Source: Octopus vulgaris (lineage: Eukaryota). Taken from it: DNA of 64,000 nucleotides. Below, one piece after another: positions 18,018-18,716 of this stretch (positions are counted from its first letter, which is position 1; each line of letters opens with the position of its first letter). The stretch covers positions 105,028,001 through 105,092,000 of the forward strand of contig OX597816.1 in NCBI GenBank assembly GCA_951406725.2. The letters are read 5' to 3'. The position numbers are program-made.

Positions 18018-18063
<46 letters not shown>

Positions 18064-18643
18064 CGTAAGGGGGATCAGCCATCTGAATGTGGCTAGGGAC
18101 AGGGTGGGGTGGTGGGGGTGTTACTGATGCATTTAGCCCCAGGCGATCATCGACGTCGCCAGAAGGACCGACACCATCACGGTGTCCTTGCTAGCCTGTA
18201 AAGGGAGATCAGCCTCACCGAAGATACGGATACTACATACGGACCGGTTTCGAGGTAATTGCCTCTTATCAACGTATGGTAAGCACCGTTCTTCGATGAG
18301 GGACTCTCTCTGCAGGCTGCATATATAAGGATTTTCACAGTAACCACAGTCACTGATGTAGAAAAACCGTTCGAAAACAATAATAAATCTCTGAGCAAGG
18401 TATAAACAGTAACTGCTCTATAACGTAAGGGGGATCAGCCATCTGAATGTGGCTGATCTCCCTTTACAGGCTAGCAAGGACACCGTGATGGTGTCGGTCC
18501 TTCTGGTGACGTCGATGATCGCCTGGGGCTAAATGCATCAGTAACACCCCCACCACCCCGCCCTGTCCCTAGCCACATTCAGATGGCTGATCCCCCTTAC
18601 GTTATAGAGCAGTTACTGTTTATATCTCGCTCAGAGAGTTTAT

Positions 18644-18716
<73 letters not shown>

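What the first reader, a model, noticed from the sequence alone, without database searches (positions are those of the whole stretch)
18059..18646. 360-nt unit with partial tandem and snap-back inversion implies a circular or multimeric RNA template
Seen: the start of the element recurs exactly 360 nt later. The sequence then switches at a GGCT microhomology (18451) to an inverted copy that spans the unit junction (18381-18418 joined to 18059-18214). This shows the template ran across the junction. Established: metazoan retrozymes are non-coding hammerhead repeats of a few hundred nt that yield circular RNAs, and PLE insertions typically show partial tandems with inverted segments. Inference: a retrozyme-like family mobilised by a PLE reverse transcriptase.
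Basis: partly seen in the sequence, partly recalled or inferred. Interest (0 to 1): 0.85.

Follow-up and report, generated by a model that had tools for sequence, protein, structure and literature searches.

The report
Hammerhead retrozyme copy inserted Penelope-style
This is a dead-end copy of a small non-coding "retrozyme" repeat that carries a self-cleaving hammerhead RNA motif, and its layout suggests it was pasted into a TA microsatellite by a Penelope-like reverse transcriptase, a known kind of mobile element.

Summary
A 360-nt unit (18059-18418) is followed by an exact copy of its first 36 nt. At a GGCT overlap it joins an inverted copy of unit positions 322-360 plus 1-159.

The unit carries a type-I hammerhead on the minus strand (18290-18219), with the core pair U3-A8 in place of C3-G8. 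The predicted cut lies after GUC, between 18242 and 18241. My first Rfam and motif scans missed it.

Read on the minus strand, the locus has the published layout of a Penelope-like element (PLE) insertion:
- a full copy preceded by a 36-nt partial copy;
- an inverted 5'-truncated copy at the 5' side;
- a 39-40-nt "tail" at one end only;
- (TA)n on both flanks.

No ORF with a start codon exceeds 35 aa within the element. No GIY-YIG endonuclease was found in the window, and the only RT trace is a weak fragment about 30 kb away.

A second, diverged relative at 54667-55064 shows the same junction, tail, inverted end and (TA)n flanks.

The template was longer than one unit, but a circle cannot be told from a multimeric transcript. 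Copy number, circular RNA and the partner PLE could not be checked. This is a new member of a known kind.

The parts
18030..18058 (.). Left flank: (TA)n microsatellite, preceded by (ACAT)n. Presumed target.
18059..18418 (-). Full 360-nt unit. RNA sense is the minus strand, so V1 = 18418 and V360 = 18059. The outer end at 18059 is taken as reverse-transcription start site 1.
   Evidence: Sense is inferred from the insertion geometry and from the hammerhead polarity.
18219..18290 (-). Type-I hammerhead ribozyme motif. Core UUGAUAA (U3-A8 variant). Helix I 6 bp plus internal loop plus 4 bp. Helix II 4 bp with a 6-nt loop. Helix III 2 bp with a 2-nt loop (palindrome ACCGGU). The minimal motif spans 18278-18236.
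18241..18242 (-). Predicted self-cleavage site, after GUC (V177|V178).
   Evidence: from the motif. Cleavage was not tested.
18189..18320 (-). Long imperfect hairpin that embeds the hammerhead in an alternative rod-like fold.
   Evidence: z -2.73 on plus, -4.26 on minus; self-match in reverse, E 0.0069
18419..18454 (-). Partial upstream copy (V325-360), identical to 18059-18094. Equivalent to a pseudo-LTR.
18451..18454 (.). GGCT/AGCC 4-nt overlap where the direct and inverted copies join.
18455..18606 (+). Inverted 5'-truncated copy (V~205-360 read on the plus strand; V202 if the shared bases are counted).
18607..18646 (+). 39-40-nt 'tail' (V1-39/40), present at this end only. Its outer end is taken as reverse-transcription start site 2.
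   Evidence: Tail concept.
18644..18740 (.). Right flank: (TA)n microsatellite.
54667..55026 (-). Second, diverged family member, direct part. Tail-like start at 54669, unit W1 at 54712-54896, the same tail-to-head junction at 54896|54897, and partial unit W2 that keeps only the 3' half of the hammerhead (about 54991-55030).
55027..55063 (+). Second locus: short inverted fragment, the complement of unit positions 53-93, abutting (TA)n.
   Evidence: 33 of 41 columns; 16 of 16 exact core

Best explanation
The 360-nt unit is a non-coding, hammerhead-bearing retroelement of the metazoan non-LTR retrozyme kind. Its RNA sense is the minus strand of the window.

Proposed mechanism (inferred unless marked shown):
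1. A Penelope-like RT/endonuclease cut a (TA)n microsatellite on both strands.
2. Each DNA 3' end primed reverse transcription of retrozyme RNA at one of two internal start sites 39-40 nt apart.
3. The left primer started at V360. It copied 396 nt, a whole unit plus 36 nt of the preceding one.
4. The right primer started at V39/40. It copied the tail and then V360 back to about V202, stopping 28 nt into a long hairpin.
5. The two cDNA 3' ends (...GGCT and ...AGCC) annealed and were filled in.

The result is: inverted truncated copy, partial copy, full copy, with a tail at one end.

The template was longer than one unit and continuous across the ribozyme cut site. It was therefore an uncut multimeric transcript, a religated circle, or a chain of template jumps.

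Shown here: the repeats, the hammerhead motif, the flanks, and the absence of ORFs.
Inferred: the strand of the RNA, priming from both ends, the PLE enzyme, and the nature of the template.

With a single hammerhead, this locus cannot release unit-length RNA by double cleavage. It is most likely a dead-end daughter copy.
For: Repeat anatomy

Hammerhead on the minus strand
- Rfam HH9, 28.4 bits, E 7.6e-06, model positions 1-77, including the UUACC loop-1 motif.
- Descriptor scan: 1 site in 64 kb on both strands, against 1 hit in 300 shuffled windows.
- The U3-A8 core variant is reported for a Schistosoma PLE (passages of PMC4209133).

Match to the published PLE insertion layout
- Published features: a full copy preceded by a truncated copy, an inverted 5'-truncated copy at the 5' end, a 30-40 bp tail at one end, and microsatellite/AT-rich targets (PMC8557442 passages; PMC8969392 passages).
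- A purified PLE protein cleaves and extends both strands. It starts reverse transcription at two internal sites whose spacing is the tail, on multi-copy, mostly uncleaved RNA (PMC11167929 main text).
- Here the two outer ends map 39-40 nt apart on the unit.

Independent agreement on strand
- The insertion geometry and the hammerhead polarity each point to the minus strand as RNA sense.

Target and coding capacity
- 4 of 4 ends of the two loci abut (TA)n tracts, which cover 3.1% of the window.
- The longest ATG ORF lying inside the element is 35 aa.
- No tRNA-like head.

Second locus at 54667-55064
- It repeats the junction, the tail terminus (within about 2-4 nt), the inverted end and the (TA)n flanks.
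- Support: E 6e-11 and 2e-10; E 2.2e-07.
Against: - No PLE RT or GIY-YIG domain was found in the window. 223 ORFs were scanned of 283 that are 60 aa or longer. The only RT trace is at 48167-48505. Its best relative carries PF00078 and PF20049, not a GIY-YIG domain.
- The PLE link rests on architecture alone.
- Only two loci could be examined, so recurrent termini rest on three ends.
- The inverted fragment of the second locus ends at unit position ~53, not at either proposed start site.
- The hammerhead scores below Rfam's gathering cut-off (28.4 against 52 bits). The activity of its U3-A8 core is untested here.
- Both proposed start sites are AU-rich and could simply anneal to a (TA)n primer. 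The in vitro PLE study instead reports starts with no homology to the target.
- The arms differ at 5 of 195 positions. The event is therefore not recent, or the templates differed.
Confidence: 0.65

Rival explanations
1. DNA-level rearrangement. A small 360-bp tandem satellite (itself hammerhead-bearing) suffered a replication template switch to the opposite strand at the GGCT microhomology, a fold-back inversion. No new retrotransposition event shaped the inversion.
For: A microhomology junction and an offset inverted duplication are typical of replicative template switching (established knowledge). Retrozyme repeats do form satellite-like arrays (abstract and passages of the 2026 preprint).
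Against: This needs two switches, the second landing exactly in (TA)n, plus loss of the rest of the array. It does not explain why the outer ends lie 39-40 nt apart on the unit. It does not explain why a second locus has its terminus at the same tail position with an inverted end and (TA)n flanks.
Confidence: 0.12
2. The element was mobilised by a LINE-type (non-LTR) reverse transcriptase, and the inversion arose by twin priming.
For: Twin priming gives an inverted 5' segment joined to a direct 3' segment at microhomology (established knowledge of L1). PMC7229834 leaves LINEs open as possible mobilisers (passage). A LINE-like RT fragment lies at 48167-48505.
Against: There is no poly(A) or other 3' tail repeat distinct from the flanking microsatellite. 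In twin priming the second priming site is arbitrary, whereas here the tail terminus recurs in the second locus. The partial tandem plus 30-40 bp tail is described as specific to PLEs.
Confidence: 0.1
3. The sequence is not a separate non-autonomous family. It is only the pseudo-LTR remains of a coding PLE.
For: PLE pseudo-LTRs carry hammerheads (PMC4209133 abstract). In Xenopus, retrozymes are sequence relatives of PLE pseudo-LTRs (section 14 of the 2026 preprint).
Against: Both cDNAs return to the same sequence after 360 nt, so the template had a 360-nt period. That is too short for a PLE ORF. No RT or GIY-YIG ORF lies within 18 kb upstream or 29 kb downstream.
Confidence: 0.08
4. The inversion is an assembly or chimeric-read artefact.
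For: PLE-type structures are known to trouble assemblies (PMC8557442 passage). No reads were available.
Against: The mirror is offset by about 120 nt and the arms differ at 5 positions. The inverted arm holds a configuration (322-360 joined to 1-159) that exists nowhere in direct orientation at the locus. A second locus has an inverted end too.
Confidence: 0.04

Closest known systems
Metazoan non-LTR retrozymes (Cervera and de la Pena 2020, PMC7229834)
   Same: Non-coding unit of 150-450 bp carrying a type-I hammerhead. Helix I is 6 bp, helix II is 4 bp, and helix III is short and palindromic. GC is below 50%. There is no LTR. Copies lie head to tail.
   Different: The core pair is U3-A8 instead of C3-G8. 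The locus holds one full unit plus fragments, so only one ribozyme. Circular RNA is unverified. The insertion sits in (TA)n with an inverted arm and a tail; my term searches of that paper found no 'inverted' or 'microsatellite'.
Penelope-like elements, EN+ clades (Penelope/Poseidon, Neptune and others): insertion architecture
   Same: Partial tandem (pseudo-LTR). Inverted 5'-truncated copy at the 5' end. A 30-40 bp tail at one end. AT-rich or microsatellite target. Hammerhead in the repeat, in the sense orientation and upstream of the RT start sites.
   Different: No RT/GIY-YIG ORF. The whole 'element' is 360 nt. Sequence relation to any autonomous PLE is untested.
Non-autonomous Chlamys elements such as MRC1 of Chlamydomonas (PMC8557442)
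   Same: Short ORF-less partners of PLEs that make pseudo-LTRs and head-to-tail multicopy insertions at microsatellites.
   Different: Those belong to the green lineage, target (CA)n/(C)n, and mostly lack hammerheads. This unit has a hammerhead and sits in (TA)n.
Amniote intronic hammerhead HH9 (Rfam RF02275)
   Same: It is the best-scoring Rfam model. The unit shares helix lengths and the loop-1 UUACC motif.
   Different: The score is below gathering. The context is a repeat unit, not a conserved intron. The core pair is changed. It is not a member of that family.

Membership tests
Metazoan non-LTR retrozyme | Type-I hammerhead motif in the unit | tested here: met
   (HH9, 28.4 bits, E 7.6e-06, below the gathering score of 52). 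(all three helices and the core present; 1 hit in 300 shuffled windows). The core pair is U3-A8.
Metazoan non-LTR retrozyme | Non-coding unit of about 150-450 bp with GC below 50% and no LTRs | tested here: met
   360 nt. GC 0.483. Longest internal ATG ORF is 35 aa. The only direct repeat is the 36-nt partial unit. PBS and PPT were not searched for.
Metazoan non-LTR retrozyme | Several tandem units, each with a hammerhead | tested here: not met
   Locus 1 has 1.1 direct units plus 0.55 inverted, and one hammerhead. Locus 2 has two unlike units and half a hammerhead. Solo or monomer copies are recognised derivatives (2026 preprint passages). Master arrays elsewhere could not be searched.
Metazoan non-LTR retrozyme | Self-cleavage and expression as linear and circular RNA | not testable with these tools
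   No RNA data and no bench.
PLE-mobilised insertion | Full copy preceded by a 5'-truncated copy (pseudo-LTR) | tested here: met
   On the minus strand, V325-360 precedes V1-360.
PLE-mobilised insertion | Inverted 5'-truncated copy adjacent to the 5' end | tested here: met
   18455-18606. Locus 2: 55027-55063.
PLE-mobilised insertion | Optional 30-40 bp tail at one end, equal to the distance between the two RT start sites | tested here: met
   A 39-40 nt tail at the right end only. Locus 2 starts at the same tail position within about 2-4 nt. The (TA)n flank leaves a few nt of ambiguity.
PLE-mobilised insertion | AT-rich or microsatellite target | tested here: met
   4 of 4 ends abut (TA)n. 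Such tracts cover 3.1% of the window.
PLE-mobilised insertion | Sequence similarity to the 3' end or pseudo-LTR of an autonomous PLE in the same genome | not testable with these tools
   No eukaryotic genome or repeat library was on hand. No PLE ORF was found in the window.
Autonomous PLE | ORF with RT and GIY-YIG endonuclease | tested here: not met
   223 of 283 ORFs of 60 aa or more were scanned. There was no GIY-YIG, and only a weak RVT_1 fragment 30 kb away.
Naiad/Chlamys-type hammerhead-less PLE derivative | Lack of a canonical hammerhead | tested here: not met
   A hammerhead is present. This was my working idea until.
Foldback/MITE DNA transposon or DIRS-like element | Matching terminal inverted repeats at both outer ends (or, for DIRS, an internal region complementary to the joined ends) | tested here: not met
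   The outer ends are offset by 39-40 nt. The internal 74-nt segment has the wrong order and orientation for a DIRS internal complementary region (definition from PMC8969392 passage).

The most novel reading that the evidence does not exclude
The locus is a fossil of rolling-circle reverse transcription. A 360-nt circular retrozyme RNA, cut at GUC and religated, was copied for 1.1 turns from one side and 0.55 turns from the other side of a (TA)n break by a PLE enzyme. That would be direct sequence-level evidence that circular RNAs, not only multimeric transcripts, are retrotransposition templates in animals. It would also show that retrozyme daughters carry the PLE 'tail' signature. My term searches found no 'tail' or 'target site' in the 2026 preprint, and no 'inverted' or 'microsatellite' in PMC7229834.
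Probability: 0.2. Interest if true: 0.65.

Novelty: new member of a known kind. Interest (0 to 1): 0.45.

Why it matters
Retrozymes were proposed in 2020 to depend on Penelope-like elements. A 2026 preprint supports this by co-occurrence and sequence relatedness. This locus adds a mechanistic trace: a hammerhead repeat whose insertion shows the PLE hallmarks of pseudo-LTR, inverted truncated copy, a 39-40-nt tail and a microsatellite target. If the termini recur genome-wide, the family would be a compact natural substrate, about 185 nt conserved around the junction, for studying how PLE enzymes choose their RNA and start sites. It would also help test whether circles or multimers are copied. 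For annotation there is a practical caution: Rfam at window scale and the plain CUGANGA motif both miss the U3-A8 hammerhead.

Tried and rejected
**Early negative hammerhead results, later overturned**
- Rfam at E<=10 on 17900-18800 showed no hammerhead.
- Rfam at gathering on the whole window gave 0 hits.
- A CUGANGA scan gave 0 exact hits.
- I then held the element to be a hammerhead-less Naiad-type derivative.
- A scan for the U3-A8 core and Rfam on 86 nt only reversed this.
- The earlier Rfam misses were filter losses. The motif miss was due to the changed core.

**Hammerhead in locus 2**
- Rfam on 54600-55120 and on 54975-55050 found none.
- Only the 3' half of the motif in W2 is recognisable by alignment (0 of 500 shuffles).
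- A degenerate motif that I thought I saw in W1 is not supported (427 of 500 shuffles score as well).

**Further copies in the window**
- blastn, nhmmer with both loci, and a 4-row profile found only the two loci.

**Copies elsewhere**
- One pattern scan of genome contigs gave 0 hits. That collection holds only bacteria and archaea, so this is uninformative.
- No eukaryotic collection was on hand.

**Peptide search**
- A 57-aa minus-sense frame across the junction (window 18475-18645, plus strand) found no relative of 31-100 aa.

**Other classes considered and rejected**
- tRNA-derived SINE.
- Helitron: the ends are not TC...CTRR. That motif is recalled; the ends were read.
- DIRS and split-direct-repeat elements, and foldback/MITE elements.
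- Snap-back self-priming of a single cDNA, which would give the arm without the 39-nt tail.

**Not attempted or not seen**
- The host organism was not determined.
- Supplementary files of the cited papers were not seen. These include hammerhead alignments and target-site tables, and may hold closer matches to the U3-A8 variant or to (TA)n-targeting families.

Full report
**1. The observation**

The region sits between two TA microsatellites. The unit U runs from 18059 to 18418 and is 360 nt long.

- U positions 1-36 recur exactly at 18419-18454 (36 of 36; family D6, E 2.6e-13).
- From 18448/18451 onward the plus strand is the reverse complement of U1-159 (156 of 159; pair I1, E 9.6e-76).
- Without a break it continues as the reverse complement of U322-360 at 18607-18646 (37 of 40 columns, one indel).
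- GGCT at 18451-18454 is shared by the direct and inverted parts.

The window has no N.

**2. A hammerhead that I first missed**

Three early tests were negative:
- Rfam at E<=10 on 17900-18800 listed only microRNA-like noise from the TA repeats.
- Rfam at gathering on the whole window gave nothing.
- A CUGANGA scan found no exact site.

I therefore worked for a while with a hammerhead-less model. Passages of PMC4209133 mention a natural core variant, U3-A8 instead of C3-G8, in a Schistosoma PLE. Scanning for it gave one site, on the minus strand at 18272. It reads UUGAUAA, then GAGG-CAAUUA-CCUC, then GAAAC-CG-GUC, followed by CGUAUG, which pairs with CAUACG just upstream of the core.

That gives the following motif:
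- helix I of 6 bp, then an internal loop and 4 more pairs;
- helix II of 4 bp;
- helix III of 2 bp closed by a 2-nt loop, within the palindrome ACCGGU.

This is the architecture that PMC4209133 and PMC7229834 describe for canonical metazoan type-I hammerheads.

Two further tests support it:
- Rfam run on 18215-18300 alone returns Hammerhead_HH9 on the minus strand, 18290-18219. The score is 28.4 bits (gathering 52), E 7.6e-06, over model positions 1-77, with the UUACC loop-1 motif aligned. The tool's text says its filters are laxer the less sequence is given in one call, which explains the earlier miss.
- A helix-aware descriptor finds this one site in the whole window on both strands, and 1 hit in 300 block-shuffled windows.

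The predicted cut follows GUC, between 18242 and 18241 on the minus strand. Cleavage itself is untested.

**3. Other properties of the unit**

- Coding: the longest ATG ORF lying inside the element is 35 aa. Stop-to-stop frames reach 94 aa but have no Pfam match. A 57-aa frame across the junction has no relative of 31-100 aa.
- GC is 0.483, against 0.345 for the window.
- There is no tRNA-like part.
- The minus-sense RNA folds better than shuffles (z -4.26, 0 of 100 shuffles as good; plus strand z -2.73). The main feature is a long hairpin, 18189-18320, that encloses the hammerhead in an alternative pairing.

**4. Architecture read on the minus strand**

Let V be the reverse complement of U. 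Reading 5' to 3' on the minus strand, the locus is:
- an inverted copy (V202-360 plus V1-39/40, lying on the plus strand);
- a partial copy V325-360;
- a full copy V1-360.

Both outer ends are 3' ends of V-sense copies. One maps at V360 (window 18059) and one at V39/40 (window 18646).

This is the arrangement given for PLE insertions in PMC8557442 (passages):
- high 5' truncation;
- a full copy preceded by a truncated copy, forming a pseudo-LTR;
- a 30-40 bp tail, often at one end only;
- a bias for microsatellites.

PMC8969392 says the same in brief.

The main text of PMC11167929 reports that a purified PLE protein:
- cleaves and extends both DNA strands;
- prefers AT-rich DNA;
- starts reverse transcription at two internal sites whose spacing corresponds to the tail;
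- uses multi-copy, mostly uncleaved RNA.

Here the two ends are 39-40 nt apart, with a few nt of ambiguity because the flanks are TA repeats.

**5. Proposed mechanism (inferred)**

1. The plus-strand 3' end at 18058 primed a cDNA from V360 through V1 and on to V325 of the preceding unit, 396 nt in all.
2. The minus-strand 3' end at 18647 primed a cDNA from V39/40 through V1 and V360 back to about V202. It stopped 28 nt into the long hairpin.
3. The two cDNA ends, ...GGCT and ...AGCC, are complementary and would prime fill-in on each other.

A single cDNA snapping back on itself would give the inverted arm followed directly by the flank, without the 39-nt tail. I therefore prefer the two-primer model.

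Two independent lines point to the minus strand as RNA sense: the insertion geometry and the hammerhead polarity.

**6. Circle or multimer**

The 396-nt cDNA exceeds one unit. It crosses both the V360|V1 junction and the ribozyme cut site. A linear self-cleaved monomer is therefore excluded as its template.

Three templates fit:
- an uncut multimeric transcript;
- a religated circle copied for more than one turn;
- template jumps.

In the second locus, consecutive units are very unlike: 84 of 136 columns identical, with 30 gap columns. One unit has the 3' half of the hammerhead and the other has none. That fits a heterogeneous multimer or jumps better than one circle, but later decay cannot be excluded.

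**7. A second locus**

A weak blastn hit led to 54667-55064. It too lies between (TA)n tracts. On the plus strand it holds:
- a tail-like start at 54669, equivalent to U~319-324;
- a 185-nt unit W1;
- the same tail-to-head junction at 54896|54897;
- a partial unit W2;
- a short inverted fragment at 55027-55063, the complement of U53-93 (33 of 41 columns).

Similarity to locus 1:
- 74% over 111 nt (E 6e-11), 73% over 103 nt (E 2e-10) and 84% over 49 nt;
- nhmmer E 2.2e-07 at window scale;
- 128 of 192 columns identical across the junction.

The conserved part is about 185 nt around the junction. The long hairpin is largely absent from W1. A 4-row profile finds no third copy in the window.

Against the model, the inverted fragment ends at U~53, not at a proposed start site.

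**8. Target**

Perfect (TA)>=6 runs, merged into tracts, cover 3.1% of the window. All 4 ends of the two loci abut such tracts. No target duplication can be read in a microsatellite, as PMC8557442 also notes.

**9. Partner enzyme**

Of 283 stop-to-stop ORFs of 60 aa or more, 45 were dropped by a low-complexity filter and 15 by eye as microsatellite translations. The remaining 223 were scanned against Pfam. The results were:
- no GIY-YIG domain;
- a weak RVT_1 fragment at 48167-48505, whose single relative (P0001) carries PF00078 and PF20049;
- a mariner HTH at 25549-25854;
- a weak aspartyl-protease trace at 62591-62818.

So no copy adjoins an RT/GIY-YIG ORF here. The PLE link is architectural only.

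**10. Comparison and novelty**

The element works like, and largely qualifies as, a metazoan non-LTR retrozyme (PMC7229834: abstract and passages). The locus is a solo or partial derivative rather than a multi-unit array.

PLE dependence of retrozymes was proposed in that paper. It is argued from co-occurrence and pseudo-LTR homology in a 2026 preprint (abstract, section 14 and passages). My term searches found no 'tail' or 'target site' in the preprint, and no 'inverted' or 'microsatellite' in PMC7229834. A retrozyme copy with the full PLE insertion signature therefore seems a useful but unsurprising addition.

**11. What stayed unchecked**

- The genome-wide family, the host organism, RNA and read support.
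- The closed collections (metagenome contigs and viral contigs).
- The papers' supplements.

Noticed in passing
window 54667-55064: A second, diverged member of the same family lies between (TA)n tracts. It has the same unit junction, a tail-like terminus, two unlike consecutive units and a short inverted end.
   Followed up: yes
window 17900-18800 versus 18215-18300: Rfam missed the hammerhead when given 901 nt or the whole window, but found it (E 7.6e-06) when given 86 nt. The plain CUGANGA motif also misses the U3-A8 core. Window-scale negatives for small ribozymes are unreliable here.
   Followed up: yes
window 48167-48505 (+): A decayed reverse-transcriptase fragment (RVT_1, E 5.7e-05). 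Its single relative is 680 aa and carries PF00078 and PF20049. It is not a PLE-type enzyme by this evidence.
   Followed up: partly
window 25549-25854 (+): Remnant of a mariner-type transposase (HTH_48, E 4.6e-08).
   Followed up: no
window 62591-62818 (+): A weak aspartyl-protease match (E about 0.005), possibly a remnant of an LTR retroelement.
   Followed up: no
window 47174-47548 and 30917-31113: Two tandem arrays, one of period 32/104 nt (about 11 copies) and one of period 82 nt (2.4 copies). Their nature is unknown.
   Followed up: no
whole window: The window is very rich in microsatellites. Simple repeats of 12 nt or more cover 6.4%, and there are 41 (TA)n tracts. GC is 34.5%. No clear host gene was found among the ORFs scanned.
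   Followed up: partly
window 18097-18120 and 54716-54738: A G-rich tract on the plus strand (C/A-rich in the RNA sense) lies 40-60 nt upstream of start site 1 and is conserved between the two loci. It recalls the AC-rich stem-loop at the RT start site of the anole PLE, but this is only a resemblance.
   Followed up: no
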